NCBI GenBank assembly: GCA_964558935.1
Contig: CAZLFP010000003.1
Coordinates: 39,684 to 103,683 of the forward strand
Source: an uncultured Gammaproteobacteria bacterium
GTDB lineage: Bacteria; Patescibacteriota; Patescibacteriia; 2-01-FULL-39-33
DNA: 64,000 nt
Direction of reading: 5' to 3'
Below, in pieces: positions 27,552-42,348 of the stretch; within the stretch, counting starts at the first letter, position 1, and each line of letters begins with the position of its first letter. The notes below the pieces were generated by a model. That model was not told where the DNA came from and did not search any database. It was given only the letters and a program-made list of their open reading frames with translations. A program made the position numbers and the translations under genes.

Positions 27552-27569
27552 ATCATAATCATTTAACAT

Positions 27570-27935: not shown

Positions 27936-27936
27936 C

Positions 27937-28302
27937 ATGACTAAAGTTTTGGTGGTTGAGGATGATAAATTCCTGTTGGCTGCCTATTCTGCAAAACTTA
28001 AGAATTCCGGCTTTGAAACGATTTTAGCGGTCGACGGTGAAGAAGCTATGACCAAAGTTCAAGCTGAAAAACCAGATATTATTCTGCTGGATTTGGTGTT
28101 GCCCAAAAAAGACGGTTTTGATGTCTTATTTGACATTAAGCAAAATCCAGATACCAAGAGTATCCCGGTGATTATTTTGTCAAATTTGGGCCAGGAAGAA
28201 GATGTAGCCAAGGGTAAGAAACTGGGTGCGACTCACTATCTGGTTAAATCCAATATTGCCATTAAAGATGTGGTGGCAAAAATTAAAGAAGTTCTAGCAT
28301 AG
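27937..28302 (+). CDS. Single-domain response regulator (REC only), paralog of the previous gene
   Basis: EDD pocket and an Asp in ILLDLVLPKKDGF. 121 aa with no output domain. Start overlaps the previous stop. Confidence 0.85.
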   Translation: MTKVLVVEDDKFLLAAYSAKLKNSGFETILAVDGEEAMTKVQAEKPDIILLDLVLPKKDGFDVLFDIKQNPDTKSIPVIILSNLGQEEDVAKGKKLGATHYLVKSNIAIKDVVAKIKEVLA

Positions 28303-28304
28303 TT

Positions 28305-29996
28305 ATGACTTTATCCAGTTCCAAACTCAAATCTTTGTTGGTTGAGTCGGGTATTCTAACGCCGGCTGATTTTAAAAAAGCCGAGCAGTTGGCTAAATCA
28401 CAAAAGAAAACTCTAGCTTCAGCTTTAGTCGAGTTGGAATTGATCAAAGACGAACAACTGGGACAGTTAACGGCAGAAGAATGGGAAGTGCCATTTTTTA
28501 GCTCCAAGCGAGAAAAAATCGATGAAGAAGTTTTAAATCTGATTCCGGAGATTATGGCTCGCAGTCAAAAAGTCATTGCTTTTGACAGGACTCCTGACGC
28601 GGTTAAGGTCGCTATGGTTGATCCGGCTGATTTGGAAACCAAGCATATGATTGAAAAAAGGGTGGGTCAGGATATTGTTGTGCATTACATTACACCCTTG
28701 GATTTGGAAGAAGCTTTAACTACCTACAAGGCGGATTTAAGACAAGAGTTTCAGACGATTTTGGAAGAATTGAAAGACGAGTCATTGAGCCGAGAACAAA
28801 GAGACGGGATTGTGGTTAAAATGGTTGATGTGTTAATCGCCTATGGCTACCAAAACAGATCTTCTGATGTCCATATTGAACCCTATGCCAAAAAAATCGT
28901 GGTTCGGTTCCGAATTGACGGTATCATGCATGATGTTTTGGATATTCCCAAGCAGTTAAGCGAATATATTTTAACCAGAATTAAAATACTGGCAAAGTTA
29001 AGAACAGACGAGCATCGGGCGGCTCAAGACGGTAAGTTTCGTTTCGATACCGGCAAAGAGAAAATAGATATTCGTGTTTCCATTGTACCTGTGACTCAAG
29101 GTGAGAACGTAGTCATGCGTTTGCTGTCTTCCAGGGCCAGACAGTTTAATTTGCCTGATTTGGGCTTTTCCGACCGAGACTACAAATTGCTGTCCCAAGC
29201 GATTAAAAATCCGCATGGCATGGTGCTGGTAACCGGACCGACCGGTTCCGGTAAAACCACCACCTTGTATGCCATTTTAAAGATTTTAAATAAAAGGGAA
29301 GTTCATGTTTCCACCATTGAAGATCCGGTTGAATACGATATTGAAGGCGTGAGTCAGATTCAGGTTAATTCCAGAACCAATTTATCTTTTGCCAAAGGTT
29401 TAAGATCCATTGTACGTCAAGATCCGGATATTATCATGGTCGGTGAAATCAGAGATAAGGAAACAGCCAATATTGCGGTTAACGCCGCCATGACCGGTCA
29501 TTTGGTTTTGTCGACTTTGCACGCCAATGATACGGCCACTACCTTGCCCAGATTACTGGATATGGAAATCGAGCCTTTTTTGGTTTCTTCCACCGTCAAT
29601 ATTATTATTGCTCAAAGATTGGTTAGAAAGATTTGTCAAAACTGTCGGGTGTCATACAGCTTTAAGGAGCATGCCAAGGAACTGACAGCTCATCGTCAGC
29701 ATATAGAGAAAATATTCCAGGCGAGTGGTAAAAAGATAGAGTCAATTAGATTATACAAAGGTAAGGGTTGTAAGATTTGCGGTGGCACCGGCTATGTCGG
29801 CCGGATTGGTATTTTTGAAATCATGTTAATGAATGAAGAAATCAAAGAAATGGTCATGAAAAATGCTTCTTCCAACGAGATTATGGCTGTAGCAAAAGCC
29901 GAAGGCATGGTAACCATGTTTGAAGATGGTTTACTGAAAGTTAAACAGGGTTTGACGACCATTGAAGAAGTATTGCGGGTGGTTAAAACAGAATAA
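28305..29996 (+). CDS. Second GspE/PilB-family type IV filament assembly ATPase
   Basis: Walker A GPTGSGKTTT, Asp box EDPVEY, Walker B IIMVGEIRD, His box HLVLSTLHA and a tetracysteine motif CQNC...CKIC. All catalytic motifs are intact. Confidence 0.9.
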   Translation: MTLSSSKLKSLLVESGILTPADFKKAEQLAKSQKKTLASALVELELIKDEQLGQLTAEEWEVPFFSSKREKIDEEVLNLIPEIMARSQKVIAFDRTPDAVKVAMVDPADLETKHMIEKRVGQDIVVHYITPLDLEEALTTYKADLRQEFQTILEELKDESLSREQRDGIVVKMVDVLIAYGYQNRSSDVHIEPYAKKIVVRFRIDGIMHDVLDIPKQLSEYILTRIKILAKLRTDEHRAAQDGKFRFDTGKEKIDIRVSIVPVTQGENVVMRLLSSRARQFNLPDLGFSDRDYKLLSQAIKNPHGMVLVTGPTGSGKTTTLYAILKILNKREVHVSTIEDPVEYDIEGVSQIQVNSRTNLSFAKGLRSIVRQDPDIIMVGEIRDKETANIAVNAAMTGHLVLSTLHANDTATTLPRLLDMEIEPFLVSSTVNIIIAQRLVRKICQNCRVSYSFKEHAKELTAHRQHIEKIFQASGKKIESIRLYKGKGCKICGGTGYVGRIGIFEIMLMNEEIKEMVMKNASSNEIMAVAKAEGMVTMFEDGLLKVKQGLTTIEEVLRVVKTE

Positions 29997-30005
29997 ACAT
30001 ATATT

Positions 30006-31088
30006 ATGGCAGGTGGCAAAAGCATGTTTTCCGCAGATATTTCTATCGGCGGAGTTAATTTAACTCAAAAGGCGTTGTTTGCCAAACATTTGGCAGTCAT
30101 GCTTCGGTCCGGACTGACCATTACCGAAGCTTTGGGTATTGCGGCAGATTCTTCGACCGGTAAAATGAAGCGAGTCTCGGCCAATCTGCTTAAGTCTGTG
30201 GAAGCCGGCAATCCCTTATCTGAAGCCATGCAAAGATTCCCCAAGGTTTTTTCCGGTTTGTTTGTATCTGCTGTGTATTCGGGTGAAGAATCCGGTACTT
30301 TGGAGGAAAATTTGGAAAACATAGCGGAACAGTTGGAGAAGCAAAAAGAGCTCAGTGGCAAGATCAAGGGTGCGATGCTGTATCCCATTGTTGTCTTAGT
30401 GGCTGCCTTTATATTGGGCATGGCCATGGCTTTCTTGGTTTTACCCAAAATTGTGCCTTTGTTTGAAGGCTTGAGAGTGGAACTGCCTTTTACAACCAAA
30501 GCTTTAATTTGGTTTGCTAAAATTGTGCAAGAACAGGGCTTATGGTTGTTTGGCGGTATTATAGTCGGAGTCATCTTTTTAATCTGGTTATTTCGTCAAA
30601 AGTTTACCCGTCCCATTTCTCATGGCTTAGCTCTGCGCTTTCCGGTGGTAAAAAGCATCACTCGCAATGCTAATTTATCTGAATTCTGCCGAACTTTGGG
30701 CACCTTGCTCAAATCCGGTCTCAATATTGATGAAGCCCTGAGGATAACCGGAGAAAGCTTGAACAATTACCATTACAAACGAGCAATTAAAAGCGTTACC
30801 GGTAGGGTGTCTAAGGGGACAAAGCTGTCAGATAATCTAAAAGCGCATGGTGATTTATTTCCCAAACTGGTCACGAGAATGATTAGGGTGGGTGAAGAAT
30901 CCGGCAAATTGGATGAAACTTTAACCTATTTGGCCGATTTTTATGACACGGAAGTGGAAATTGCCACCAAAACCCTGTCCACTGCCATTGAACCTATATT
31001 GTTGATTGTGATTGGTTTAATCGTTGGTTTTTTAGCTTTGTCTATTATTACCCCTATTTACCAAATCACCGGCAGTGTTAAACGTTAA
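30006..31088 (+). CDS. Second GspF/PilC-family platform protein
   Basis: 360 aa with two GspF repeats and three TM segments. Directly follows the ATPase. Confidence 0.85.
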   Translation: MAGGKSMFSADISIGGVNLTQKALFAKHLAVMLRSGLTITEALGIAADSSTGKMKRVSANLLKSVEAGNPLSEAMQRFPKVFSGLFVSAVYSGEESGTLEENLENIAEQLEKQKELSGKIKGAMLYPIVVLVAAFILGMAMAFLVLPKIVPLFEGLRVELPFTTKALIWFAKIVQEQGLWLFGGIIVGVIFLIWLFRQKFTRPISHGLALRFPVVKSITRNANLSEFCRTLGTLLKSGLNIDEALRITGESLNNYHYKRAIKSVTGRVSKGTKLSDNLKAHGDLFPKLVTRMIRVGEESGKLDETLTYLADFYDTEVEIATKTLSTAIEPILLIVIGLIVGFLALSIITPIYQITGSVKR

Positions 31089-31533
31089 AGATATGGCTAA
31101 AGGCTTTTCCATGGTCGAACTCTTAATTGTAATCGGTATTCTACTGATTATTTTTTTAGCTGCCATCCCGGTGTATGGTAATTTTCAAGCGTTGGCCCAA
31201 TTAAACAATACCACCAGCCAAATGGTGCAGAATATTAGAACCGCTAAGGGTTTGGCTGGGGTGAGATATAATAATTCTAGGCACGGAGTTAAGTTTTTCA
31301 ACAACAGTTATACCGTGTATCAAGGAGCAACCTATGCCGGTAGAGATACGGATTATGACAGAGTTTTTGATTTGGATGATGTTTTTAATCTGACCACTAC
31401 TCTGGCTTCGGATGAGGTTAATTTTAGAAGAGGATCGGGTTTGCCGGACAATACCGGTACCATAACTCTAGTGCATGATGTAGAAGGTACTAAACAGATT
31501 ACGATCAATGAATGGGGACTGATAGAAGAATAG
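31075..31533 (+). CDS. Pseudopilin / minor pilin
   Basis: Prepilin signal MAKG^FSMVELLIVIGILLI (E at +5). An alternative start is the ATG at 31093. Confidence 0.7.
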   Translation: MLNVKDMAKGFSMVELLIVIGILLIIFLAAIPVYGNFQALAQLNNTTSQMVQNIRTAKGLAGVRYNNSRHGVKFFNNSYTVYQGATYAGRDTDYDRVFDLDDVFNLTTTLASDEVNFRRGSGLPDNTGTITLVHDVEGTKQITINEWGLIEE

Positions 31534-31598
31534 GAGTTGGGTGTTTAGAAATTAAGCCATTTAGTTTCTAAATCCTGACTCTTAATTCACAACTGCGG

Positions 31599-34500
31599 AT
31601 GAGATTTTCAGTTTTTAACAGGTTAGTTAAAAACCACAATGGACAAGGTTTGTTGGAGGTTATTTTGGCTTTGGCCATTTTTTCTTTTATTGCAGCTGCG
31701 ATGATGAGCATGGCTCTCGGCGGATTTCAAGCATTGGAAAGAGGAGGAGAACAAACAGAAGCTGAAGCTTTGGCTCAAGAAGGACTGGAGGCGGTCAAGG
31801 CCATTCAAGAAAGAGCCTGGAATGAAATGGAGTATGGAGTCAGTGCCGTCTCCAATGTTTCTTCCCAGTGGGAGTTTGTGGGAGAAGGTACGACTGAAAA
31901 TATTGGTCAGTTTACCCGAACCATTACCATCGCTGATGTCTGTCGTGACGCTTCAGATAATATTGACACCTGCCCCAGCAATTATACGGATGAACATACC
32001 AAAAGAGTGATTGTGGAAGTGACTTGGGATACTCTTCAAGGCAATATCAATACTGTGCGGCAAGAAGGCTATCTTACCAATTGGGATTCTACAGACTGGA
32101 CTCAAACCGATTGGGTGGGTGGAGACGGACAATCTATTTGGAGCGATACCACTCAGTATGACACCGGTAGTAATGTGGATGATACAATTGCCGGTCAAAT
32201 TTCTTTGGCTGCTATTTTAGGTGATGGCTGCGGTTTAAAAGTATGGCCTTTTACGACTGCCGGCAATTATACGTACGATAGTCAAGACATTGAAGTAACC
32301 GGAGGCAATGCTCAATTGGTTGGAACCGTTGTGAGTGGTTCAATACAGGATTCAGGTTTTAATAATACCTCAGACACTGATTACAATTGGCCTTTTACGA
32401 CTGCCGGCAATTATACTTATGATTCAAACAAAATAACCGTAACCGGTGGAGCGGCACAGTTGTATGAAATTTCTGAAGTATGCCAAGGTACACCGGATCC
32501 TTGTGCGGGCATTGGAGTGCAGGGTACTTGTACTTCTCAGGGGGGTTGTTCTTGGGATCCGGCGGATTGTTCCGGATCTCCAACTGCCTGCGGCAGTTTG
32601 CCGGAAGGGGATTGTTCAGCCTGTGGCTGTTCTTTAGTGCCTGGTAATTGTAGCAACAATGGTGCATGTGGAGATAATGGCGCTGAAGGAGCTTGCACTA
32701 ATTGCAGTTGTGCCACTTGCAGTTGGGATGCCACTAGTTGTCCTTATGTGGAAGCTTGGGATGGACAGAAATGGGTTAAGGAACATGAAGCTTTTCCTTA
32801 TGCAGTATTTAAATCTGTTGTTAACACAACATATGATTCTCTACCAAGTTTAGCGTGTATTGATGGACACGCTAGGGTTAGGATTTATGAGAGTTTGCCA
32901 GAAATAACATATTTACAATATTTTCAAGTCTTCGCTGCCAAACAAACAGGTGGTTATATTAAACCTGATGTTGAGGGTAGACCTAGGGTTATGAATAATT
33001 GGAATAGTCCAGATTTTTGTATTACCTCCTTGGGTCAGTCAGGTCAAGATTGTTTAAATATAATCAAGGATCATGATGAAGAATTTTTTGAACCAGAAAT
33101 AGATAAATCTAAAATAGACGAATGGATTGAGATGGAATTTAGAGATGTGAAAAACGATGAAGCTAAGCTGTACTTGGTAGCTAGAAACCAGCAATTGATA
33201 GCTATTTATTATCAGTACATAGCTCATATTTTGGGTCGTAAGCAGGCAGATCTTTTTTCTGAGGTTTCAGCTTGGCCGGGTTTCTATCAGTTGACGAATA
33301 ATTGGTGGACCAATAGTCTTAAGGTTCAGGTTGAAGTTTGGGATGGCAGTAATTGGCAAAGACAAGGAGTAATATCTGCTGGTTTTCATATGCCGGGTAG
33401 TGGAGCTGATGATTTCTTAGTTAGTTTAAAGAAGTTAGATGATTCAAACAATTTAAAGGTTAGAATTCGTTTTATGTCTGGTGCCTACGGAATTGATTAT
33501 ATTGCTCTAGATGATAGTCTTGATCAAGAACTAGATATCAAAGCAGTCAATCCTAAAGAAATATATGTTAATGGAAAATTATCTGATGATTATTTGGTTT
33601 CTATTGGATATAATGAATATGTTGAATTGGTTTATGATTGCAATCTTGATGAAGATTATTATTTTGGTATTGGTGGTTATTATAATATAGATTTTTATGA
33701 TTCTAGTCGTCAAAAAGATCCGATTTCTGCCTGGTCTGAATTAATGGATTTATTTACAGGTGGAAAAAAATACTTAATACGTACCGCAGTTGATAAAGGT
33801 TTGTATAAAAAAGATAATTGTAATCAAAACTATACCACTGCTGAATTGGCTGCTCAGGCTCAGTTAAGTCCCATTGCATACGTCATATATTTTGAAATAC
33901 TGTTAATTCTGGTTTCAGGTATACTATTTATCGTTGGATATGATAGAAGAAGGTTAGTTATTGGATTTACCATTGGCACGACAATTACCATTGTTTTGTT
34001 ATATGGTTTTACAGTTGTTATTGCCGGCGGAACATGTGGTGGCACCTTAAATTGTTCCGGGTGTAATGAAACAGCTTGTAATTTATGTGCGACATGTACC
34101 TGGAATGCAGGATCATGTAGTGGAACACCAAGTGTTTGTACTACGCATAGCACAGAAGATCAGTGCTCAGATTGCGGATGTTCATGGGATGAGGCCAATT
34201 GTTTTGGTACTTCAAGTGTTTGTTCAACGTACGCAACTGAAGGCAACTGTAACGGACAGCAAGGCTGTATTTGGTCTGGTGAGTATGCGACCACTTCTCC
34301 AAGCATATATCCAACTAGCTCATATTCTGCCCCCGGTGTTTTTAGCTGGGACAGTTTTTCGGCAACAACCACCGTTAGCGGTTCTCCATTTGTGGATGAT
34401 GAATCTTCAGAATTTAATGGTGCCAAGAGCAACACTCAGTATGACTCTGCCAATTATTGGTTGGAATTAACATCTGCGGGTCAAACTGCCGGCAGCGGTA

Positions 34501-37500
34501 CCTATACTTCACCCATCCGCAATGTCGGAGCCAATGCATCATGGGATAGTATCGCTTGGATTCCCACCATGCCTTTTGGTAAAGAACTGCCCAATGGCGG
34601 TTCGGCTGAAACAGCCTATTTAATGGGTAACGTTGATATGTCAGACAATGTACTCCTTTTGCATCTGAGTGCCACTTCCACTTCTATTATTGATTGGTCA
34701 GGCAATGGCTATAATGGAACATACAATGGAGCCTTAACTGGTCAGACTGGAAAATTGAATGGTGCTTTAGGCTTTGACGGTACAGATGATATTGTGACTT
34801 TTACGTATAATTTGAATAGTACCTTGGGTGGTACTGCCTCACTTGCATTCTGGATTAATACCACAGACACCGGTAATAACAATGTTGCTGATGCTCCGGC
34901 AGTGACCGGTGTTGAAGAGTCGGGTGGAGATGATGATGTTTTTTGGGGTTCTTTAAATGCTTCCGGTAAGTTTGTTATTCAGGCAGGTAATACAGCCGGT
35001 GCAGTTAGTAGTACGACTATTAATGACGGCAGTTGGCATCACGTTGTTATGACCAGAAACTCCACCACGGGAGAGGTTAAAATATATGTTGATGGTGTTT
35101 TAGAAGATACGGCTATCTCAGATTTGGGAGTCAAGGGCAATGCGTTCTATACGATTGGCCGTTTAACCGATACCGGATTTCCAGCTAATCATTACTATTT
35201 ACAAGGCACTTTAGATGAACTGGCCATCTTTGATACTGTGATTGATGAGGATATGGTAATGGAATTATATAAACGAGGAGCCTTGAGAATTAAGTATCAG
35301 GTAAAGTCATGTAATGATAGCGGTTGTGTCGGAGAGTCTTTTATTGGACCTGATGGTACGACCGGTGATTATTACGATGAAACAGATAATACTACCAATG
35401 GGTTGCCAAGTCTAACTTTAACCAATGTGTCAGATAATCCATACTTTCAATACCGAGCGACTTTGGAAACGGACGATACTGCTTTAACTCCAGAGCTCAG
35501 AAGTTTTACGACTAACTATACCGGAGGAGGTTTAGCTAATGTCACTTATCAGTTATCAGATGATGATGGCACTACTTGGTACTATTGGGGTGGCTCATCT
35601 TGGGATGTAGCCGGAGCGTCCAATTCAAGCACAGAAGCTACAGTTGATGCTAACATTAGTGACTTTAGTACCAGTACGGAACAAATTAAATTTAAAGCCT
35701 TTCTAAACAGTGAAGGCACTCAGAATGTTGAACTGGATAATGTCTTCCTAGGCTTTACTCCCGGTGGCTCACCTTGGACATATAGTGACTGGGATGCCGG
35801 TGGTGGAGAAGTTAATCCGGATGGAACAATAGATGCCAGCGGAGGCAATCCGGGTTCGTTTGCCAAAATAACCGTTCCCAATGGTCAAAATGATGAATTG
35901 GGTGGCTATTTTGAACAAGCTTTTACCACCACGGTAGATAATCCTTCCGGTACCGTTGATTTTGACTATAAGATGATTGCTTTTAATGCCACGGCTAATG
36001 TGTCGCAAATTAGAATATTTGTAGATACTTCATCTGGTGCACCAACTAATCAGGTAGGTAGTTCAATAGATGTGACTAGTGCTGGAAACTGGACAAGTGC
36101 CTCTCAAATAGATATTTCTTCTGACTTGGGAACTGCAGGAACATACTATTTAAAAGTTGCCTATTGGGTTGAAACTCCAGGCGGTGGCGGAGGTGGTCCT
36201 TTTGTGGTTGGTTTTGACAATGTGGATTTAAACTGGACTTTAACTACATATCCGGATGATGAACCAACGATACAGCCAACCGAATCGTATGAGGGTCCTG
36301 GTGTTAATTTCTGGTCATCTTTCTCTGAAACTGCCACCAAAGGAACAGGGGAAATCTACTACCAACTTTCAGATGACGATGGTTCCAATTGGTATTATTG
36401 GGGTGGTTCTTCATGGGTCAGTGCCGGAGCTTCGAACTATAACACGGCTAGCGTAATTAATTCCAATATTGGCACTTTTAGCACTTCAACCGAAACTATT
36501 TTATTTAAAGCTTTCTTAGACAGCGATGGCACACAACAAGTTCAATTGGATCAGGTTGCCATCTATTGTTCCAAATTATATGATTGGCCTTTTTCTACGC
36601 CGGGAGATTATACCTATGATGACCAGAAGATAGAGGTAACCGGTGGTCAAGCTCAATTGGTTGAGTCTGGAGGATATGTTATTAGATCGACTGAGTACGC
36701 AATAACAGACTATACTGGTGTTACAGGAGAAATTACACTGACCAATGATTTATCCTCCAATTATTTTGTTATGGTTAAAGGTAGTGATGGTGATGGTACT
36801 GATACTGGTAATAGGGGTCCAGATGAAAACTATTTTGCTTTAACTTCAGATCCGTTTGGCACCGGAGATTTAGCTGTCACAGGAGAAAATAATACACTAG
36901 GCTTCACTCGCGGAGGTAATGTAGACGGCTGGACCGGTGTGATTACAGTCGTGGAGTGTTTAAATAATTGTTCATCAGATGGTTTTGAACTGTTAGATGT
37001 GGCCAGGGTGACCCACAGTGGAACAACTTTAACCGGTACAGACACTTTTACTAGCGGTTGGGGATCGGATATAGACCAGGTCATGTTATTTGGCGGATAT
37101 GATGGAGCAGGCTGTAATACCGCAGATACAGATAATTCAGATCATAAGGTCTGTCATGCTCGCATTTGGCCGTCAGGAACTAACACTATTAATTGGCAGA
37201 GAAACGATACGGATGTCAGCAGCATGACAACTGCCTATTCAACTGTTATGGCTTTAAAGTGGGGTAGTAATTGGACAGTTCAAAGAGTCACAGTTTCCGG
37301 CAGTGCCGGTGGTGCTGGTGCTAATGCCACCGGTGAGTACAATACTGCTACAATTAATTCTGTAGCTAGAGATAATACCTGGGTATGGGGAACTGGTTGG
37401 ACTAATGACCAGGGTATTGGCGATGCGTCCGAGGGTACCTTAATCACTCTTGGTGATGGAGTTAATCAAAATACCAATGAAACCAGTGTTGCAGTTGGTC

Positions 37501-38498
37501 AGGAGTATTCAGATACCAGAGAATTTGAAGTTTATGCTTTGACCCATGATGATATTTCTGTGGATTATCGGTTTAAAGCAGATGGCAATGGTGCAGATTT
37601 AACTTATGATCAAACTGTTGATACAGCTGCCAGTTCTACAGCTAGAATGGCTTTGGGGTATAATACCTGTAATGGTACTGGTGATGCTTATCCTCGTCCC
37701 ATTTTTTCAGCCAGATATACTTCAAATACCAATATTCAACTACTCAGAAATCGTTGGAATCAAGCTTTTGTGGCCTGGACCCAGAGTATTGATTTCTCCG
37801 GTATTAATAAGCCAATTACCTATCCCTCGGATGATCCGACCATCCAACCCAGTGCTTTCTATAATCTAGGAGGTGTAAGTGAGTTAACTGCTTTTGAGGA
37901 AACAGCCAATAAAGATGGGGGAGAGATATATTATCAGTTATCCAATAATAACGGAGCCACCTGGTTATACTGGGGAGGATCAAATTGGACCACAGCTGGG
38001 GCTTCAGACTATAATACAGCCAGTGTGGTCAATACTAATATTGGAAGTTTTCCCACTTCAACCACTCAATTCCTATTCAAAGCTTTCTTGAGTGGTAATG
38101 GTTCTCAACAAGTGGCTTTAGATAATGTTAGAATCTTTTGGGGTGAAGATGCCGGAGGTGGAGGTTCAGTCGGTTATGAGACCAGTGGTTTTTTGGTGTC
38201 TTCAGCCTTGGACATGGGAGACGCATCTCCGGTGCAAGTCATTGAATGGAGCGAAGACAGACCGGCTGATACTGAAATCAAGCTACAAGTTAGAACTGCA
38301 CCGGACAGTGGTGGCAGTCCCGGTACTTGGACAGATTGGTTTGGAGAAACAGGATCTGGTACTTTTTTTACAACCACCAGTCCTACCTTAATACCAACCA
38401 CCATTAATGCTAACCAGTGGTTGCAGTACAGAGCCGAATTAAGTGGAGATGGCACGGTAACTCCTGTGTTATATGATATAAATCTTAATTACAAATAA
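31599..38498 (+). CDS. Giant (2,299-aa) modular pseudopilin-like surface protein: prepilin-type N-terminus, Cys-rich modules, an AT-rich insert with a TM hairpin, a LamG/ConA-like lectin domain and triplicated ~100-aa repeats
   Basis: A single uninterrupted ORF. The N-terminus NG^QGLLEVILALAIFSFIAAAMMSMAL has E at +5 followed by a hydrophobic alpha1 helix. A LamG-type motif set spans ~34870-35350 (LAFWINT...SWHHVVMTRN...IYVDGVL...LDELAIFDTV). Three YYQLSDDDG.WYYWGGSSW...FKAFL...G.Q.V.LD.V repeats. Embedded in the second filament locus. Confidence 0.85.
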   Translation: MRFSVFNRLVKNHNGQGLLEVILALAIFSFIAAAMMSMALGGFQALERGGEQTEAEALAQEGLEAVKAIQERAWNEMEYGVSAVSNVSSQWEFVGEGTTENIGQFTRTITIADVCRDASDNIDTCPSNYTDEHTKRVIVEVTWDTLQGNINTVRQEGYLTNWDSTDWTQTDWVGGDGQSIWSDTTQYDTGSNVDDTIAGQISLAAILGDGCGLKVWPFTTAGNYTYDSQDIEVTGGNAQLVGTVVSGSIQDSGFNNTSDTDYNWPFTTAGNYTYDSNKITVTGGAAQLYEISEVCQGTPDPCAGIGVQGTCTSQGGCSWDPADCSGSPTACGSLPEGDCSACGCSLVPGNCSNNGACGDNGAEGACTNCSCATCSWDATSCPYVEAWDGQKWVKEHEAFPYAVFKSVVNTTYDSLPSLACIDGHARVRIYESLPEITYLQYFQVFAAKQTGGYIKPDVEGRPRVMNNWNSPDFCITSLGQSGQDCLNIIKDHDEEFFEPEIDKSKIDEWIEMEFRDVKNDEAKLYLVARNQQLIAIYYQYIAHILGRKQADLFSEVSAWPGFYQLTNNWWTNSLKVQVEVWDGSNWQRQGVISAGFHMPGSGADDFLVSLKKLDDSNNLKVRIRFMSGAYGIDYIALDDSLDQELDIKAVNPKEIYVNGKLSDDYLVSIGYNEYVELVYDCNLDEDYYFGIGGYYNIDFYDSSRQKDPISAWSELMDLFTGGKKYLIRTAVDKGLYKKDNCNQNYTTAELAAQAQLSPIAYVIYFEILLILVSGILFIVGYDRRRLVIGFTIGTTITIVLLYGFTVVIAGGTCGGTLNCSGCNETACNLCATCTWNAGSCSGTPSVCTTHSTEDQCSDCGCSWDEANCFGTSSVCSTYATEGNCNGQQGCIWSGEYATTSPSIYPTSSYSAPGVFSWDSFSATTTVSGSPFVDDESSEFNGAKSNTQYDSANYWLELTSAGQTAGSGTYTSPIRNVGANASWDSIAWIPTMPFGKELPNGGSAETAYLMGNVDMSDNVLLLHLSATSTSIIDWSGNGYNGTYNGALTGQTGKLNGALGFDGTDDIVTFTYNLNSTLGGTASLAFWINTTDTGNNNVADAPAVTGVEESGGDDDVFWGSLNASGKFVIQAGNTAGAVSSTTINDGSWHHVVMTRNSTTGEVKIYVDGVLEDTAISDLGVKGNAFYTIGRLTDTGFPANHYYLQGTLDELAIFDTVIDEDMVMELYKRGALRIKYQVKSCNDSGCVGESFIGPDGTTGDYYDETDNTTNGLPSLTLTNVSDNPYFQYRATLETDDTALTPELRSFTTNYTGGGLANVTYQLSDDDGTTWYYWGGSSWDVAGASNSSTEATVDANISDFSTSTEQIKFKAFLNSEGTQNVELDNVFLGFTPGGSPWTYSDWDAGGGEVNPDGTIDASGGNPGSFAKITVPNGQNDELGGYFEQAFTTTVDNPSGTVDFDYKMIAFNATANVSQIRIFVDTSSGAPTNQVGSSIDVTSAGNWTSASQIDISSDLGTAGTYYLKVAYWVETPGGGGGGPFVVGFDNVDLNWTLTTYPDDEPTIQPTESYEGPGVNFWSSFSETATKGTGEIYYQLSDDDGSNWYYWGGSSWVSAGASNYNTASVINSNIGTFSTSTETILFKAFLDSDGTQQVQLDQVAIYCSKLYDWPFSTPGDYTYDDQKIEVTGGQAQLVESGGYVIRSTEYAITDYTGVTGEITLTNDLSSNYFVMVKGSDGDGTDTGNRGPDENYFALTSDPFGTGDLAVTGENNTLGFTRGGNVDGWTGVITVVECLNNCSSDGFELLDVARVTHSGTTLTGTDTFTSGWGSDIDQVMLFGGYDGAGCNTADTDNSDHKVCHARIWPSGTNTINWQRNDTDVSSMTTAYSTVMALKWGSNWTVQRVTVSGSAGGAGANATGEYNTATINSVARDNTWVWGTGWTNDQGIGDASEGTLITLGDGVNQNTNETSVAVGQEYSDTREFEVYALTHDDISVDYRFKADGNGADLTYDQTVDTAASSTARMALGYNTCNGTGDAYPRPIFSARYTSNTNIQLLRNRWNQAFVAWTQSIDFSGINKPITYPSDDPTIQPSAFYNLGGVSELTAFEETANKDGGEIYYQLSNNNGATWLYWGGSNWTTAGASDYNTASVVNTNIGSFPTSTTQFLFKAFLSGNGSQQVALDNVRIFWGEDAGGGGSVGYETSGFLVSSALDMGDASPVQVIEWSEDRPADTEIKLQVRTAPDSGGSPGTWTDWFGETGSGTFFTTTSPTLIPTTINANQWLQYRAELSGDGTVTPVLYDINLNYK

Positions 38499-38992
38499 TG
38501 AATAAAGGCTTTACTTTAGTTGAATTAATCATTTACATTGCCATTATTGGTCTCATGGTGGTGTCTTTTGCTACTTTTAGCATTGCCATCTCAGATTCAA
38601 GAGAAAAGTCATATGTCGTGTCAGAAGTCCATCACAATTTAAGGGATCCGTTTACCTTAATGACTAAGAGAGCCAGGTTTGCCAGTAGCGTAGTTACACC
38701 AACAGCCGGTAATTCTTCTACCACTCTGGAGTTAGACATGCCGGGAGCCAGTCCTAATTTAACCTTTAAAGTCATTGATGATATCTTAACTGTGCAAGAA
38801 GGAGTCGGTACACCCGTCGCTGTGACCAGTGACGAGGTTCAAGTCACTGAGTTAGCTTTTACCAATTATGCCAGTCCCGGCTTAAGATCCAATTTAAAAA
38901 TCGAGTATACGGTTGAATATGCTCATGAAGATGGAGATCCCATCTATACTTATGACAAAAGCATTGAAACCACAGTCAGAGTTAGAAAATAA
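38498..38992 (+). CDS. Pseudopilin / minor pilin
   Basis: Prepilin signal MNKG^FTLVELIIYIAIIGL. Its start overlaps the stop of the giant gene. Confidence 0.75.
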   Translation: MNKGFTLVELIIYIAIIGLMVVSFATFSIAISDSREKSYVVSEVHHNLRDPFTLMTKRARFASSVVTPTAGNSSTTLELDMPGASPNLTFKVIDDILTVQEGVGTPVAVTSDEVQVTELAFTNYASPGLRSNLKIEYTVEYAHEDGDPIYTYDKSIETTVRVRK

Positions 38993-38993
38993 T

Positions 38994-39401
38994 ATGAATA
39001 TTTTAAACAATCAAAAGGGAATAGCGGCTTTTCTGGTGATTGTGATGATTTCGGCCGTAGCTTTAATTATGGCATATTCAGCAGCTATCTTAGGTTTGGG
39101 TGAAATTGAAATGGGTTTTGACTCGCAACAAGGCGGACAGGCTTTTGCCCTTGCCGATGGTTGTATTGAAGAAGCCATGCGCAGATTGAGATTGGACACT
39201 GATTACACAGGCAGTTCTTTGAGTTTTGGAGCCAATTCCTGTATAATTAGTGTAACCGGAGCTGGCAGTAATCGTACTATATATACTACCAGTACTGTTG
39301 GTGAATATTATAAAAAGATTGAAGCTCAAGTTTCTTTTACAGACAGTCCGACAACTGGTGTAGTTTTAAGTTTAGACAGTTGGGAAGAAAGCGATCAATA
39401 G
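38994..39401 (+). CDS. PilX-like minor pilin
   Basis: N-terminus MNILNNQKGIAAFLVIVMISAVALIMAYSAAILGLGEI is PilX/GspK-like. Start chosen at 38994, because the track start at 38913 would overlap the previous gene by 80 nt. Confidence 0.55.
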   Translation: MNILNNQKGIAAFLVIVMISAVALIMAYSAAILGLGEIEMGFDSQQGGQAFALADGCIEEAMRRLRLDTDYTGSSLSFGANSCIISVTGAGSNRTIYTTSTVGEYYKKIEAQVSFTDSPTTGVVLSLDSWEESDQ

Positions 39402-39406
39402 CAGAC

Positions 39407-40750
39407 ATGTTACAATACGGCCAACAATCTGTAGGTATCGATATTTCAGATCAAACCATTGAGGTGGCTGAAATTCTTAGTGGTTTTCGCAAAAAAATCA
39501 CGAGCTTGGGTCAAAGAAAATTACCAACCGGTTTGGTGGAAAGGGGTAGAATAAAAGATGTCAAAGCTTTAACCAAGGAATTGGATGCCTGTTTCAAACA
39601 AGCCAAACCCAAACCCATTAATTATCGACGAGCTGTTTTTTCTTTGCCGGAAAGCCAAGTTTATACGCATGATTTTATCCTTAAGGAAGCTAACAAAAAG
39701 AAATGGGAGGATCTGATCAAACAAGAAGCACTGGCTAATTTTCCCATTCCTGAGAATGATTTGGTTTATGCCTATACCATACTCACTCACAACAAGCAAG
39801 GAGCCACGGTTTTGTTGGCAGCCAGCAGTTACCAAGTGATTAATGAATGGCGAGCATTCTTTCGACAAGCTAAAATCCGAGTTGATTATTTTGCGGTTGA
39901 AGCTTTGGCTATCTTCAGAGGTTTGTTTGTCGGTGGTGTTAAAGAGCCGGTGGCTATAATTGATTTGGGAGCTTATACAACTTTAATCTCTATCTTTGAC
40001 AAACATGGTTTGGAATTCACTTATTCCGTGAATACAGCCGGCAACAGATTGAACAGTGAAATTGCCAAAGCTCTTAATATAGGTCAGGATCAAGCTGAAA
40101 AAATGAAGATTAAGCTGGGTCTTACAGATCCGGACAGCCAGGTTTTCAATGTTATTTTAAAGACTTTGGAGAAAATTACAAGAGGTATTGATGTGTCTGT
40201 GGATTACTACCAGAACAAGTCAGGTCAACAAATAAAAAAAGCGGTGTTAATTGGGGGTACGAGCCGATTAAAAGGCTTATTGGAATACTTTCAGAGTAAT
40301 TTAGAGTATGAGGTACAATTGGGTTCATCCAAATTGTTTAAAACCCATAAACTGGACTTGGGCTATATTGAAGCCATTGGTTTGGCCAATATTGGATTAA
40401 AAGAAAAATGGTTGAAAAAAGACCCGGTCTTTGTATTAAAAGATGTTAAAAAACCGTCAAAAAAGTCTAAATCTAGCGGAAAAAAAGCGGGAAAAAAGAC
40501 TCGGGATGTTGAGTCGATGTCTAGCGAGTATTATACTCTTGAGGATCAGGAAATTGAATTTGAAGCGAAAAAATTGCGCCGACAACAGATTACTTTTTTA
40601 ATTATTGTTATCATTGGAGCGATCGCTATCAGTTTGGCTTTTTGGTACCAGAATGAACAGAAGAAAAAGAAAGCCCAGGAATATGAACAGCAACTGGAAA
40701 CTTTTTTGGAAGATCGGCAGCGTGAGATTCAGTACAATATTGAACAGTAG
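39407..40750 (+). CDS. PilM-like actin-fold assembly protein fused to a Lys-rich linker and a C-terminal TM anchor (PilM-PilN-like fusion)
   Basis: N-terminus SVGIDISDQTIEVAEI matches the PilM fold. C-terminus has KKPSKKSKSSGKKAGKK followed by a TM (ITFLIIVIIGAIAISLAFWY) and a coiled coil. No separate pilN or pilO in this locus. Confidence 0.75.
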   Translation: MLQYGQQSVGIDISDQTIEVAEILSGFRKKITSLGQRKLPTGLVERGRIKDVKALTKELDACFKQAKPKPINYRRAVFSLPESQVYTHDFILKEANKKKWEDLIKQEALANFPIPENDLVYAYTILTHNKQGATVLLAASSYQVINEWRAFFRQAKIRVDYFAVEALAIFRGLFVGGVKEPVAIIDLGAYTTLISIFDKHGLEFTYSVNTAGNRLNSEIAKALNIGQDQAEKMKIKLGLTDPDSQVFNVILKTLEKITRGIDVSVDYYQNKSGQQIKKAVLIGGTSRLKGLLEYFQSNLEYEVQLGSSKLFKTHKLDLGYIEAIGLANIGLKEKWLKKDPVFVLKDVKKPSKKSKSSGKKAGKKTRDVESMSSEYYTLEDQEIEFEAKKLRRQQITFLIIVIIGAIAISLAFWYQNEQKKKKAQEYEQQLETFLEDRQREIQYNIEQ

Positions 40751-40831
40751 TGGATAATTTAGGACATTTGCTTGTATTTTAAACTGTGTTATAATATAAT
40801 TAACATAAATATTAGAAATAAGTTTGCTACT

Positions 40832-41323
40832 ATGAAAAAAACTGGTTTTACCTTAATTGAATTATTAATTGTGATTGCCATTATTGCAATTATCGCAGCT
40901 GTGGCTTTTGTGGCTTTGGATCCTCTAACACGTTTTAGAGACTCAAGAGATTCAGCCAGATGGTCTGATGTAACGGCTATGTTATCTGCGATTGTGGTTG
41001 ATCAGGTTGACAATGGAGGTAATTATCTCTGGTCGATTCAAAATGCGACAACGGCGACAAATGTTATGATCAGCAATGCTACCACTACCACTGGTTGTAA
41101 TGCCACTGCTTGTGATACAGCCGTAACCAGTACAGCTGCTTGCATTAACATGCAAGGCTTGGTGGATGAGGGTTATCTGGGCACTATGCCAGTTAGTCCG
41201 AACGGCAGCGGCAGCTGGGATTCCGCTTTAACCGGTTATTATTTGACCAAGAACACGAATGGCTCGATTACAATCACGGCATGCGAAGCTGAGAATTCCG
41301 GTACAATCAGTTTGACAAGGTAA
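40832..41323 (+). CDS. Type IV pilin paralog 1 (Thr/Ala/Asn-rich globular domain, three Cys in the C-terminal half)
   Basis: Prepilin signal MKKTG^FTLIELLIVIAIIAII. Start chosen at 40832, not the track start at 40772. Preceded by an AT-rich promoter-like region. Confidence 0.85.
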   Translation: MKKTGFTLIELLIVIAIIAIIAAVAFVALDPLTRFRDSRDSARWSDVTAMLSAIVVDQVDNGGNYLWSIQNATTATNVMISNATTTTGCNATACDTAVTSTAACINMQGLVDEGYLGTMPVSPNGSGSWDSALTGYYLTKNTNGSITITACEAENSGTISLTR

Positions 41324-41339
41324 GAAATTTATAATCTAA

Positions 41340-41852
41340 ATGCGGAGGCTTAAGGATCAAAGAGGTTTAACTTTAATAGAGCTGCTAGTCGTTGTAACGA
41401 TATTGGGTATACTAGCAGCTGCTATTTTTGTGGCTTTAAATCCGGTTAAATTGTTTAAAGACTCCAGAGACGTGGTCAGAAGGCAGGATGTGGAAACGAT
41501 TCTAACGGCAATTGGTTTGTACCAGGTTAACAGCGGAGGTATTAATCCGACCGAGATTCAGGGTTTAACTGCGGGTCGAGTGTATATGATCACCGACGGA
41601 GCCCAAGCCACCGGCTGTGATGATTACGGAACCAATGGCTGTGATACCGAGGTATACGGTGATAGTTATTGTGCTGATTTGGATGAATTGGTGGATAATG
41701 GCTATTTGGGCGATATTCCGATCAGTCCCACCGGCACGACCACTTGGTCTGAAGACATGACCGGTTACACGATTGAAAAATCATCCAACGGCAACATCTT
41801 CATTCGAGCCTGTGAATCTGAAAGCGGAGATGAAATTTGGGTAGTAAGATAA
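41340..41852 (+). CDS. Type IV pilin paralog 2
   Basis: Prepilin signal QRG^LTLIELLVVVTILGILAAAIFVALNP. Shares DSRD, GLYQV and C-terminal GYLGDIPISPTGTTTWSEDMTGYTIEK blocks with paralog 3. Confidence 0.85.
   Translation: MRRLKDQRGLTLIELLVVVTILGILAAAIFVALNPVKLFKDSRDVVRRQDVETILTAIGLYQVNSGGINPTEIQGLTAGRVYMITDGAQATGCDDYGTNGCDTEVYGDSYCADLDELVDNGYLGDIPISPTGTTTWSEDMTGYTIEKSSNGNIFIRACESESGDEIWVVR
41703..41770 (+). repeat. 68-nt exact repeat (copy 1) shared by pilin paralogs 2 and 3
   Basis: TATTTGGGCGATATTCCGATCAGTCCCACCGGCACGACCACTTGGTCTGAAGACATGACCGGTTACAC is identical to 42199-42266. Confidence 0.9.
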
Positions 41853-41853
41853 T

Positions 41854-42348
41854 ATGAATACAAAAGGTTTAACTTTAATTGAATTATTGATCGTGGTGGC
41901 CATTTTGGCCATTTTGGCTTCAATTATTTTTTTAGCTTTGAATCCGGTTAAGAGATTCCAAGATTCTCGCGATGCGGTTAGAGCTGAAGATATTGAGAAT
42001 ATCATTAATGCCATTGGTTTGTACCAGGTGGATAATGGTGGTATTTTGCCGTCTGAAATTCAAGGTTTGACAGCTGACAGAGTGTATATGATTACCGACG
42101 GAGATGAAACCAGCGGTTGTGATGATTATAATGATTGCGATACGGAGGTGTATGCAGATAACTACTGTGCTGATTTGGATATTTTAGTCACGGAAGGTTA
42201 TTTGGGCGATATTCCGATCAGTCCCACCGGCACGACCACTTGGTCTGAAGACATGACCGGTTACACAATTGAAAAGACAGCAGCCGGTAATATTTTTATT
42301 CGTGCTTGTGAATCTGAGGGCGGGGATGAGCTTTGGTTATCCAGATAA
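41854..42348 (+). CDS. Type IV pilin paralog 3
   Basis: Prepilin signal NTKG^LTLIELLIVVAILAILASIIFLALNP. C-terminal 26 aa are identical to paralog 2 (24-codon conversion tract, two silent differences). Confidence 0.85.
   Translation: MNTKGLTLIELLIVVAILAILASIIFLALNPVKRFQDSRDAVRAEDIENIINAIGLYQVDNGGILPSEIQGLTADRVYMITDGDETSGCDDYNDCDTEVYADNYCADLDILVTEGYLGDIPISPTGTTTWSEDMTGYTIEKTAAGNIFIRACESEGGDELWLSR
42199..42266 (+). repeat. 68-nt exact repeat (copy 2)
   Basis: Identical to 41703-41770. Flanks diverge except for about 10 further nt with two mismatches. Confidence 0.9.

What the first reader, a model, noticed from the sequence alone, without database searches (positions are those of the whole stretch)
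32760..34020. Compositionally foreign AT-rich in-frame insert inside the giant pilin gene, encoding a positively-charged-loop TM hairpin
About 1.25 kb inside the giant ORF falls to roughly 30% GC, against ~45-55% in the flanks. Codon choice shifts with it (AGA/AGG Arg, ATA Ile, AAA/AAT-rich). The insert sits exactly between the two Cys-rich CS.CGCSWD modules, as if it interrupted an originally contiguous array. It keeps the reading frame. It ends with two strongly hydrophobic helices separated by DRRR (LSPIAYVIYFEILLILVSGILFIVGY-DRRR-LVIGFTIGTTITIVLLYGFTVVIAGG), which is unexpected inside a secreted pilus subunit. This looks like a laterally acquired or shuffled domain cassette. It could be a membrane-insertion or anchoring element, or a swappable variable module.
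Basis: seen in the sequence. Interest (0 to 1): 0.7.

Follow-up and report, generated by a model that had tools for sequence, protein, structure and literature searches.

The report
Membrane-hairpin domain cassette inside giant pilin
The AT-rich stretch is not a fresh foreign insert: it is the core of a conserved, previously undescribed module (a sugar-binding-like outer domain plus a two-helix membrane anchor, bracketed by cysteine-rich connectors) sitting in a swappable slot of a giant type IV pilus protein of an ultra-small (CPR) bacterium, and the same module occurs in free-standing proteins and in giant archaeal surface proteins.

Summary
The GC dip is real. 32760-34020 is 33.5% GC, against 43.5% for the rest of the gene, and it is the lowest 1.2-kb window of the 64 kb. 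About two thirds of the dip is amino-acid composition: the insert's GC2 is normal and the Gly/Thr/Ser/Cys-rich flanks are abnormal. About one third is a real GC3 deficit (0.19 observed, 0.40 expected, z about -8).

The two hydrophobic helices with a DRRR loop are real and conserved. The segment is not an interruption of a Cys array. Cys modules, a 375-aa beta-sandwich domain, a TM hairpin and further Cys modules form one colinear cassette (giant aa ~322-865). The same cassette occurs in ~750-aa stand-alone secreted proteins (Dojkabacteria and other CPR), in giant archaeal proteins (Woesearchaeota), and in three syntenic orthologous giant pilin genes.

In those three orthologs the cassette is compositionally native. 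It is as diverged from the window copy (50-53%) as PilB and PilC are (54-59%). So it was inherited, not recently acquired.

Other giant-pilin relatives carry a different domain, or nothing, between the same outer Cys brackets. The site is therefore a swappable slot.

Best mechanism (inferred): a topology-neutral internal membrane anchor that keeps both flanks outside the cell and tethers the pilin/adhesin to its own membrane. The domain belongs to a large family absent from Pfam and NCBIfam.

The parts
31599..38498 (+). Giant modular type IV (minor) pilin-like gene, 2299 aa
   Evidence: Single ORF. Weak N_methyl, GspI and ComGE hits on aa 11-64. Lies between pilB/pilC/minor pilin and minor pilin/pilM/pilins. 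About 15 giant homologs share the N-terminal ~290 aa and the C-terminal ~105 aa.
31599..31706 (+). Class III signal peptide and hydrophobic alpha1N helix (…KNHNG|QGLLEVILALAIF…; Gly-1, Glu+5)
   Evidence: Read directly from the sequence. Kyte-Doolittle maximum at aa 18-36. Same motif in homologs P0013, P0016 and P0020. The public gene call P0011 starts 22 aa too late.
32481..32555 (+). Outer Cys bracket module 1 (aa 295-319, CQGTPDPC…C…QGGCSW), of the pilin-family type
   Evidence: Motif scan. Equivalent to the modules of P0014, P0017, P0022 and P0034, and to the single module of P0036.
32568..32738 (+). Cassette N-side Cys modules (aa 324-380, CSGSPTAC…C..CGC… and C.NNG.C…C.C..C.W)
   Evidence: Colinear with the stand-alone homologs from aa 322. 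Cys columns are invariant.
32739..33863 (+). ~375-aa extracytoplasmic beta-sandwich domain (starts CPYVEAWDG; conserved EHEAFP, AG(F/Y)HMPGSGADDFLVS, GIDY..LD)
33873..33941 (+). TM helix 1 (aa 759-781, IAYVIYFEILLILVSGILFIVGY), running outside to inside
   Evidence: Kyte-Doolittle 19-residue mean 2.61. Helical in the AF2 model. Present in all 17 close relatives.
33942..33953 (+). Cytoplasmic loop DRRR (aa 782-785)
   Evidence: Across 18 family members the loops hold 2-10 Lys/Arg each and one acidic residue in all (net +84). The outer flanks are net -26.
33954..34031 (+). TM helix 2 (aa 786-811, LVIGFTIGTTITIVLLYGFTVVIAGG), running inside to outside
   Evidence: Kyte-Doolittle 19-residue mean 2.01. 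Helical in the AF2 model. Conserved as a hydrophobic segment but not in sequence; no invariant column.
34035..34187 (+). Cassette C-side Cys modules (aa 813-863, C.GTLNC..C…C..C.W and CSGTPSVC…C.DCGCSW)
   Evidence: Colinear with the stand-alone homologs up to aa ~865. Motif scan.
34200..34274 (+). Outer Cys bracket module 2 (aa 868-892, CFGTSSVC…C…QQGCIW), followed by the conserved junction 'Y..T.PSIYPTSSYSAPGV.SWDSF'
   Evidence: Aligns with the second bracket of P0014 and P0017 and with the single module of P0036.
28305..31533 (+). Upstream type IV pilus genes: pilB (28305-29996), pilC (30006-31088), 152-aa minor pilin (31075-31533)
   Evidence: Pfam T2SSE at 5.7e-128, T2SSF at 3.7e-63, N_methyl. 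Same order in L010, L012 and L013.
38498..42348 (+). Downstream type IV pilus genes: 164-aa pilin, 162-aa ORF, pilM-like gene, three pilins
   Evidence: Pfam N_methyl and PilM_2.

Best explanation
The AT-rich 1.25 kb is the core of a conserved cassette with this order: inner Cys modules, a ~375-aa jelly-roll ectodomain, a two-helix transmembrane hairpin with a basic cytoplasmic loop, then inner Cys modules. It spans giant aa ~322-865 (window ~32562-34193). It sits between a pair of outer 4-Cys 'bracket' modules (aa 295-319 and 868-892). These brackets mark a swappable slot in a giant, modular type IV minor pilin of a CPR bacterium.

Shown:
- the cassette's extent and its conservation;
- its presence in three syntenic orthologs with native composition;
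- its presence as a stand-alone protein and inside archaeal giant proteins;
- the alternative contents of the slot in other relatives;
- the hairpin's positive-inside signature.

Inferred mechanism. After the N-terminal pilin helix is inserted N-in/C-out, aa 37-758 are exported. TM1 re-enters the membrane, DRRR stays in the cytoplasm, and TM2 exits again. The remaining ~1490 aa (LamG and other beta domains) are therefore also outside. Two helices leave the topology unchanged, so the cassette can be dropped into any exported protein. Its job is to tether a filament-subunit-bearing surface protein to the producer's own membrane, holding the jelly-roll domain at the membrane surface. It would act as a basal anchor or terminator, or as a membrane-retained adhesin, rather than as a subunit that travels out with the pilus.

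The GC dip is mainly the contrast between an ordinary globular and membrane-spanning amino-acid composition and the Gly/Thr/Ser/Cys-rich flanks. A further GC3 deficit is peculiar to this genome's copy and has no established cause.
For: Cassette unit.
- Ten stand-alone homologs of 691-759 aa align colinearly from the Cys modules through the domain and hairpin to the Cys modules.
- The exhaustive profile search adds P0041-47. The archaeal giants P0027, P0044 and P0046 carry the same order, each bracketed by Cys modules.

Inheritance.
- L010 (GCA_021106995.1) has the same gene order: two response regulators, pilB, pilC, minor pilin, giant gene. It aligns with the window protein in one HSP over aa 12-928.
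- L012 and L013 are likewise syntenic.
- Identity of the window copy to the orthologs: domain 50-53%, PilB 54-56%, PilC 55-59%, pilin N-terminus 47-52%.
- Every segment of the orthologs has GC3 within |z| <= 2.7 of its neighbours.

Slot.
- Paired modules bracket a different domain in P0014, P0017, P0022 and P0034, while P0036 has a single module and no insert at the same junction.
- None of about 15 other giant homologs has aa 382-811.

Hairpin.
- The giant protein has three hydrophobic maxima only, and all 17 close relatives have the pair after the domain.
- Loops are net +84 and outside flanks net -26.
- There are no invariant residues in the hairpin, as expected for a lipid-facing anchor.
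- The AF2 model shows a helical hairpin.

Link to filaments.
- The giant protein carries a type IV pilin module.
- The stand-alone proteins carry a C-terminal domain homologous to the secreted protein encoded just downstream (44% identity, E 2e-33).
- Their operons also hold a signal-peptide protein with a weak PapD_N hit and a C-terminal TM helix. This resembles the membrane-anchored chaperones and the anchor protein PamR proposed for CPR Pam pili (bioRxiv 10.64898/2026.03.03.709456).

Composition.
- GC2 explains about two thirds of the dip.
Against: - No experiment or direct topology test exists. The anchor role rests on hydropathy and charge statistics.
- A stable two-TM anchor is hard to reconcile with the usual tip location of large modular minor pilins, such as Saccharibacteria PilX1/PilX2 (PMC11623550). 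The protein could be cleaved, or the hairpin could be extracted.
- The GC3 deficit of this copy (z -7.7 to -8.1) is not explained by inheritance alone.
- Cassette similarity among the orthologs is discordant with PilB and PilC. L012-L013 are 66% identical in the domain, against 56% for L010-L013, whereas L010-L013 are 78-80% identical in PilB/PilC. Recombination therefore does occur in this gene.
- Homology of the stand-alone operons to the Pam system was not tested.
Confidence: 0.6

Rival explanations
1. Recent lateral acquisition or allele replacement. The window's cassette, or much of the giant gene, was brought in by recombination from a lower-GC relative (GC3 about 0.2) and has not yet drifted to the local base composition.
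For: - Amino-acid-conditioned GC3 is 0.19 against 0.38-0.40 expected (z -7.7 to -8.1). The rest of the gene is at 0.30 (z -8.3). The minimum is 0.11 at aa 601-750.
- ATA and AGR codons are enriched.
- Orthologs in genomes of similar GC (L012, 41%) have a domain GC3 of 0.42-0.45.
- Low-GC relatives have the cassette at GC3 0.18-0.24 (L010, L018, L020).
- Cassette versus PilB/PilC discordance among L010, L012 and L013 shows that such exchange happens.
Against: - The window cassette is equidistant (50-53%) from all sampled copies, just as PilB and PilC are.
- No closer relative turned up in 15 billion proteins (the giant protein's 90%-identity cluster has one member), in GTDB species genomes or in the metagenome pattern scan (maximum 53% identity).
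- There are no flanking repeats or mobility genes.
- The deficit is not confined to the cassette.
Confidence: 0.25
2. Host-membrane insertion element. The giant pilin sits at the pilus tip, and the hydrophobic hairpin inserts into the membrane of the host cell to which the episymbiont attaches.
For: - CPR bacteria and DPANN archaea are mostly episymbionts, and CPR type IV pili mediate host binding (PMC11623550, PMC9894109).
- The cassette occurs in both groups.
- Large modular minor pilins are thought to be tip proteins.
Against: - The strong positive-inside loop (+84 net over 18 sequences) is the signature of co-translational insertion into the producer's own membrane.
- Stand-alone homologs have ordinary Sec signal peptides and no pilus-machinery genes nearby.
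- The hairpin sequence is poorly conserved.
- Once inserted, pulling the RRR loop back through the bilayer is energetically unfavourable (general membrane biophysics).
Confidence: 0.08
3. Purely compositional or selective effect. There was no transfer. The low GC3 reflects gene-specific codon usage, for example a weakly expressed giant gene under AT-biased mutation, or slow-codon selection around a membrane-inserted segment.
For: - The whole giant gene is GC3-poor and the downstream pilus genes are mildly so (0.33-0.38, against 0.43 for pilB/pilC).
- The deepest trough (aa 601-800) immediately precedes and covers the hairpin.
Against: The three orthologous giant genes show no such effect in any segment. 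A family-wide translational-pausing signal is therefore unlikely.
Confidence: 0.2
4. Artefact: a chimeric assembly, or the hydrophobic pair is a buried core and not membrane-spanning.
For: The source is metagenome-derived (P0011 comes from a 124-kb NCBI contig).
Against: The same architecture occurs in 18 independent sequences from different assemblies and in four syntenic pilus loci. The frame and the junctions are conserved.
Confidence: 0.02

Closest known systems
Modular type IV minor pilins (Streptococcus sanguinis PilB/PilC, from my own knowledge; Saccharibacteria PilX1/PilX2, PMC11623550)
   Same: A class III signal peptide and pilin module with extra functional modules grafted on, including lectin/LamG-like ones (Laminin_G hits at aa 1126-1208). 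Encoded among the minor pilins of a type IV pilus operon. Thought to mediate adhesion.
   Different: 2299 aa with many shuffled modules. It contains an internal two-helix membrane hairpin and cysteine-rich bracket modules. I know of no described modular pilin with these features, and the papers read here mention none.
Galactose-binding-domain-like jelly rolls (CBM32/35/6/61, F5/8 type C, IFT25, Eph ligand-binding domain)
   Different: Identity is only 6-13%, with no sequence-profile hit. The domain is ~375 aa, with an inserted helical hairpin, a second beta subdomain and a long C-terminal helix. No ligand-site comparison was possible.
Uncharacterised 'SCP(F/W)(V/I)YSWDG…' ectodomain superfamily (no Pfam or NCBIfam entry found)
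   Same: hmmsearch with the cassette-domain profile finds 1046 representative clusters (385 at E <= 1e-10), matched nearly end to end. They include ~500-aa lipoprotein-like proteins and archaeal-type proteins.
   Different: Only the closest ~10 clusters have the TM hairpin after the domain and the Cys modules. In a sample of 112 relatives, 39 have a TM helix just before the domain and 67 have none next to it.
Membrane-anchored components of CPR Pam pili (PamC/PamD chaperones, PamR anchor; bioRxiv 10.64898/2026.03.03.709456)
   Same: In monoderm CPR cells a filament is proposed to be assembled and tethered by TM-anchored proteins. The operons of the stand-alone cassette proteins hold a secreted beta-rich subunit-like protein and a PapD_N-like protein with a C-terminal TM helix.
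   Different: Pam proteins use a single C-terminal TM helix, not an internal hairpin. Sequence or structural homology to Pam proteins was not tested here. The window gene is in a type IV pilus operon, not a Pam operon.
WxL / WxL-interacting-protein surface clusters of Firmicutes
   Same: A neighbour of stand-alone homolog P0005 hits WxLIP_PGBD (PF06030, E 1.9e-5), and the subunit-like proteins contain W-x-L motifs.
   Different: The score (25.1 bits) is below Pfam's cut-off (27.3). There is no WxL-domain hit. This concerns the homologs' neighbours and not the window.

Membership tests
Type IV pilin (class III signal peptide protein) | Short basic leader ending in Gly(-1), Glu at +5, and a ~20-residue hydrophobic alpha1N helix | tested here: met
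   …KNHNG|QGLLEVILALAIFSFIAAAMM…. Kyte-Doolittle maximum at aa 18-36. The homologs share G|Q(S/T)L(L/I)E.
Type IV pilin (class III signal peptide protein) | Pfam N_methyl (PF07963) above the gathering score | tested here: inconclusive
   17.7 bits against a cut-off of 21.2. The neighbouring small pilins pass.
Type IV pilin (class III signal peptide protein) | Encoded with the pilus machinery (PilB, PilC, PilM, other pilins) | tested here: met
   The synteny is conserved in L010, L012 and L013.
Type IV pilin (class III signal peptide protein) | Cleaved by prepilin peptidase and incorporated into a pilus | not testable with these tools
   Needs biochemistry or imaging.
Helical-hairpin (two-TM) membrane anchor | Two hydrophobic segments of at least 19 residues separated by a short loop | tested here: met
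   aa 762-780 (mean 2.61) and 790-808 (mean 2.01). Helical in the AF2 model.
Helical-hairpin (two-TM) membrane anchor | Positive-inside charge distribution, conserved across relatives | tested here: met
   Loops net +84, outer flanks net -26, over 18 sequences.
Helical-hairpin (two-TM) membrane anchor | Experimentally determined topology | not testable with these tools
   None available.
Recently laterally acquired segment (genomic-island-like) | Synonymous-site composition unlike that of the host genes | tested here: met
   GC3 z -7.7 to -8.1, but the whole gene is also atypical.
Recently laterally acquired segment (genomic-island-like) | Absent from syntenic orthologs | tested here: not met
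   Present at the same position in L010, L012 and L013.
Recently laterally acquired segment (genomic-island-like) | Similarity to a donor higher than that of the flanking genes (phylogenetic discordance) | tested here: not met
   Window domain 50-53% against PilB/PilC 54-59%. No closer sequence was found.
Recently laterally acquired segment (genomic-island-like) | Flanking repeats or mobility genes | tested here: not met
   Only short, chance-level repeats.
Carbohydrate-binding module / galactose-binding-like domain | Beta-jelly-roll fold | tested here: met
Carbohydrate-binding module / galactose-binding-like domain | Sequence-family membership or a conserved ligand or Ca2+ site | tested here: not met
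   No Pfam, NCBIfam or PDB sequence hit. Ligand-site geometry was not examined.
CPR Pam (donor-strand) pilus operon (concerns stand-alone homologs only) | Homology of operon proteins to PamA-E, PamR and PamT | not tested
Only a weak PapD_N hit (E 1.5e-3) and an architectural resemblance.

The most novel reading that the evidence does not exclude
A rare, undescribed 'ectodomain + TM-hairpin' cassette, exchanged between CPR bacteria and DPANN archaea, converts filament subunits into membrane-tethered base or terminator subunits. In this clade it is fused to a type IV pilin; elsewhere it is fused to a subunit of a chaperone-type fibre. This would be the first type IV pilin with an internal membrane anchor. 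The paired 4-Cys modules would define a general plug-in slot for domain swapping in giant surface proteins of ultra-small symbionts.
Probability: 0.3. Interest if true: 0.75.

Novelty: new variant of a known kind. Interest (0 to 1): 0.55.

Why it matters
Type IV pili are the main known host-attachment device of CPR episymbionts, and their large modular minor pilins are the suspected specificity determinants. A conserved internal membrane anchor in such a pilin conflicts with the usual picture of a tip subunit being extruded. It suggests either a basal or terminator pilin, or a membrane-retained adhesin wired into the pilus machinery.

The work also defines three things:
- a domain family of about a thousand sequence clusters that has no Pfam or NCBIfam entry;
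- a rare subfamily with a TM hairpin that is shared between bacterial and archaeal ultra-small symbionts;
- a cysteine-module-bracketed slot that explains how these giant genes shuffle domains.

On method, it shows that a GC dip inside a gene with compositionally biased flanks must be broken down by codon position before it is called 'foreign'.

Tried and rejected
- Pfam, NCBIfam and PDB sequence searches of the insert found nothing. Pfam and NCBIfam on distant relatives also found nothing informative, apart from a T4SS_pilin fusion in P0087 and a LamG domain in P0050.
- Rfam on 31000-39000 gave no hit.
- A repeat search for flanking direct or inverted repeats found only short chance matches. 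One of them reflects the internal 'VE(A/V)WDG' motif, which occurs twice in the domain.
- Foldseek against the PDB gave no hit with E <= 1e-3. The afdb50 library was unavailable.
- The exact-sequence look-up of the window's own protein (P0011) was not on record, so the source organism is known only as a CPR-type genome through its relatives.
- The search for a closer, low-GC donor failed. The GTDB genome scan and the metagenome pattern scan gave nothing above 53% identity.
- I considered a WxL-cluster identity for the homologs' operon. It was rejected as unproven because the hit is below threshold.
- I considered an enzymatic role because of the conserved EHE and HMPGSGADD motifs. These motifs are not kept in distant relatives, so they are not a family-wide active site.
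- The Cys modules were modelled with pLDDT < 50, so no disulfide or packing inference was drawn.
Full report
**Observation.** The giant ORF runs from 31599 to 38498 (+) and encodes 2299 aa. The flagged stretch, 32760-34020, is 33.5% GC. The rest of the gene is 43.5% and the window mean is 41.7%. Over 1.2-kb windows the sd is 2.2%, so this is the lowest stretch in the 64 kb, and 300-bp windows fall to 27-31%. No other part of the gene drops below 38%. The two hydrophobic helices around DRRR are there. The protein has exactly three Kyte-Doolittle maxima: aa 18-36, 762-780 and 790-808. Cysteines are concentrated on both sides: 16 in aa 295-381 and 15 in aa 812-895, with none in the hairpin.

**What makes the GC dip.** By codon position, the domain (aa 382-755) has GC1 0.47, GC2 0.33 and GC3 0.23. 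The C-terminal 1404 aa have 0.46, 0.50 and 0.33. GC2 therefore accounts for about two thirds of the difference. A GC2 of 0.33 is typical of the window's other genes (0.28-0.41). The flanks are the unusual part (GC2 0.44-0.76) because they are rich in Gly, Thr, Ser, Ala and Cys.

A synonymous-site signal remains. Conditioned on amino-acid content and on the codon usage of 28 other genes, the domain's GC3 is 0.195 against 0.398 expected (z -8.1). In other genes, 374-codon windows deviate with sd 0.033 and a minimum of -0.053. The whole giant gene is GC3-poor (about 0.30, z -8.3 to -8.5). The deficit is deepest across aa ~350-900, with a minimum of 0.11 at aa 601-750. ATA (Ile) and, modestly, AGR (Arg) codons are enriched.

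**What the segment is.** The insert protein has no Pfam, NCBIfam or PDB sequence match. A search of 5.8 billion clusters returned ten proteins of 691-759 aa at 42-48% identity. These share one architecture: signal peptide, Cys modules, the same domain, two hydrophobic helices with a Lys/Arg loop, Cys modules, and a C-terminal beta-rich domain. The alignment is colinear over giant aa 322-865. So the inner Cys modules on both sides belong to the unit. The AT-rich part is only its non-Cys core.

An exhaustive profile search of 1.84 billion representatives found 1046 clusters (385 at E <= 1e-10). The close group with hairpin and Cys modules comprises only about ten clusters. It includes giant archaeal proteins: P0027 from a Woesearchaeota MAG, P0044 labelled 'archaeon', and P0046. 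The distant majority are proteins beginning the domain with 'SCPF(V/I)YSWDG'. In a sample of 112, 39 have a TM helix just before the domain and 67 have none adjacent. None has a Pfam or NCBIfam family for this region.

**Is it foreign?** The full-length search found about 15 giant pilin-like homologs that share the N-terminal ~290 aa and the C-terminal ~105 aa, with the other domains shuffled. None contains aa 382-811. However, three syntenic loci do carry it at the same position.
- L010 (GCA_021106995.1; two response regulators, pilB, pilC, minor pilin, giant gene) aligns with the window protein in one HSP over aa 12-928.
- L012 and L013 were found in the GTDB genome scan.

Identity of the window copy to these three is 50-53% for the domain, 54-56% for PilB, 55-59% for PilC and 47-52% for the pilin N-terminus. 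The cassette is therefore as old as the locus. In all three orthologs every segment of the giant gene has GC3 within |z| <= 2.7 of its pilus-gene neighbours, at genome GC of 32%, 41% and 46.5%. Their domains still show a 4-10 point total-GC dip that comes from GC2 alone.

No closer relative or low-GC donor was found, and there are no flanking repeats. The window-specific GC3 deficit remains unexplained. Recombination in this gene is plausible, because among the orthologs the cassette's similarities (L012-L013 66%, L010-L013 56%) disagree with those of PilB/PilC (L010-L013 78-80%).

**A bracketed slot.** A 4-Cys module, C-x-G-(S/T)-P-x-x-C-x(8-9)-C-x(3-4)-C-x-W, occurs in pairs around a domain.
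- Window: aa 295 and 324 on one side, aa 840 and 868 on the other. The outer pair is of the '…Q.GC.W' type and the inner pair of the 'C..CGC.W' type found in the stand-alone proteins.
- P0014 (272 | 475), P0017 (272 | 474), P0022 (244 | 449) and P0034 (160 | 361) bracket a different ~175-aa domain.
- P0027, P0044 and P0046 bracket the cassette.
- P0036 has one module joining the 'NYTYDS..IEVTGG.AQL' repeat directly to the 'YP.D.PTI.PT…SWDSFTE' domain. This is an empty slot at the same junction.

**How it probably works.** The N-terminus is a canonical class III signal (G-1, E+5), and the gene sits among the minor pilins of a pilB-pilC-…-pilM operon. The pilin helix inserts N-in/C-out, so aa 37-758 are outside. 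In 18 family members the inter-helix loop holds 2-10 Lys/Arg each and one acidic residue in all (net +84), while the outer flanks are net -26. The hairpin has no invariant residue. This is the signature of a lipid-facing anchor inserted co-translationally in the producer's membrane, with the loop in the cytoplasm. Both Cys-rich regions and the remaining ~1490 aa would then be outside. Two helices leave the topology unchanged, which explains why the cassette can sit inside different exported proteins.

In two of its three contexts the cassette is fused to a filament-subunit-like module. Here that module is a type IV pilin. In the stand-alone proteins it is a C-terminal domain homologous to the secreted protein encoded next door (44% identity, E 2e-33). 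Those operons also encode a PapD_N-like protein with a C-terminal TM helix. This arrangement recalls the membrane-anchored chaperones and the anchor PamR proposed for CPR Pam pili, but homology to them was not tested.

I therefore favour a membrane-tethering role, as a basal or terminator subunit or a membrane-retained adhesin, with the jelly-roll domain held at the membrane surface as a probable ligand- or envelope-binding module. This is inference. The main difficulty is that large modular minor pilins are usually placed at the pilus tip, which a stable anchor with an RRR loop would prevent unless the protein is cleaved.

**Verdict.** The feature is a new variant of a known kind: a modular minor pilin carrying an undescribed ectodomain + TM-hairpin cassette in a Cys-bracketed slot. 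It is not a recent foreign insert.

Noticed in passing
window 31599-31664: The public gene call for this protein (P0011, 2277 aa) starts at an internal Met. It omits the 22 residues that complete the class III signal peptide (…KNHNG|QGLLE…). The ORF from 31599 restores a motif shared with the homologs.
   Followed up: partly
window 45763-46602: A thioredoxin-domain ORF (PF13192, E 1.2e-7) lies 7 kb downstream of the cysteine-rich giant gene. It could be an extracytoplasmic disulfide oxidoreductase serving the Cys modules.
   Followed up: no
window 24513-28302: A 7TM-Cache-HAMP-PAS histidine kinase and two single-domain response regulators sit directly upstream of pilB. The response regulator-pilB arrangement is conserved in L010, L012 and L013, which suggests two-component control of this pilus.
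   Followed up: partly
window 32244-32462, 36579-36659 and three ~105-aa repeats (aa ~1302-1385, 1551-1655, 2075-2179): The giant protein contains internal repeats. One is a 'WPF(T/S)TAGNYTYDS..I.VTGG.AQL' motif, present three times. The other is a ~105-aa domain, also present three times. Both are also the units shuffled among homologs.
   Followed up: partly
window 33873-33941; L010, L012, L013 hairpins: TM1 of the hairpin carries a Glu 7-9 residues from its outer end in all four pilin-borne cassettes (FEIL, FELV, AEII, LELI) and in P0001, P0002 and P0042. It is absent from P0004-10. This echoes the Glu5 of pilin helices. Its significance is unknown.
   Followed up: no
L010 vs L013 vs L012 (giant genes and pilB/pilC): L010 and L013 have 78-80% identical PilB/PilC, yet their locus GC is 32% and 46.5%. 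The L013 cassette is closer to that of L012 (66%) than to that of L010 (56%). This implies rapid GC change and recombination within the giant pilin gene in this clade.
   Followed up: partly
L007 946-5777 and 6435-11602: The stand-alone cassette operon (245-aa, 701-aa, 167-aa, 197-aa and following genes) is tandemly duplicated on this contig.
   Followed up: no
L001 9342-14385; L005 9130-13368; L007 6435-10516: The stand-alone cassette genes sit in a conserved operon. It holds an upstream 219-245-aa secreted protein, a downstream 167-234-aa secreted protein homologous to the cassette protein's own C-terminal domain, and a protein with a signal peptide, a beta domain and a C-terminal TM helix (weak PapD_N or WxLIP_PGBD hits). 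It may be a Pam-like or chaperone-type fibre system.
   Followed up: partly
P0087 (524 aa): A distant relative fuses a T4SS pilin domain (PF18895, TrbC/VirB2-like, itself a two-TM hairpin) to the N-terminus of the same ectodomain.
   Followed up: no
L012 3880-4245; L013 3668-4033: A conserved 122-aa ORF (MTEFQERLKKLMDEYVHFVY…) is inserted between pilC and the minor pilin in these two orthologous loci. It is absent from the window and from L010.
   Followed up: no
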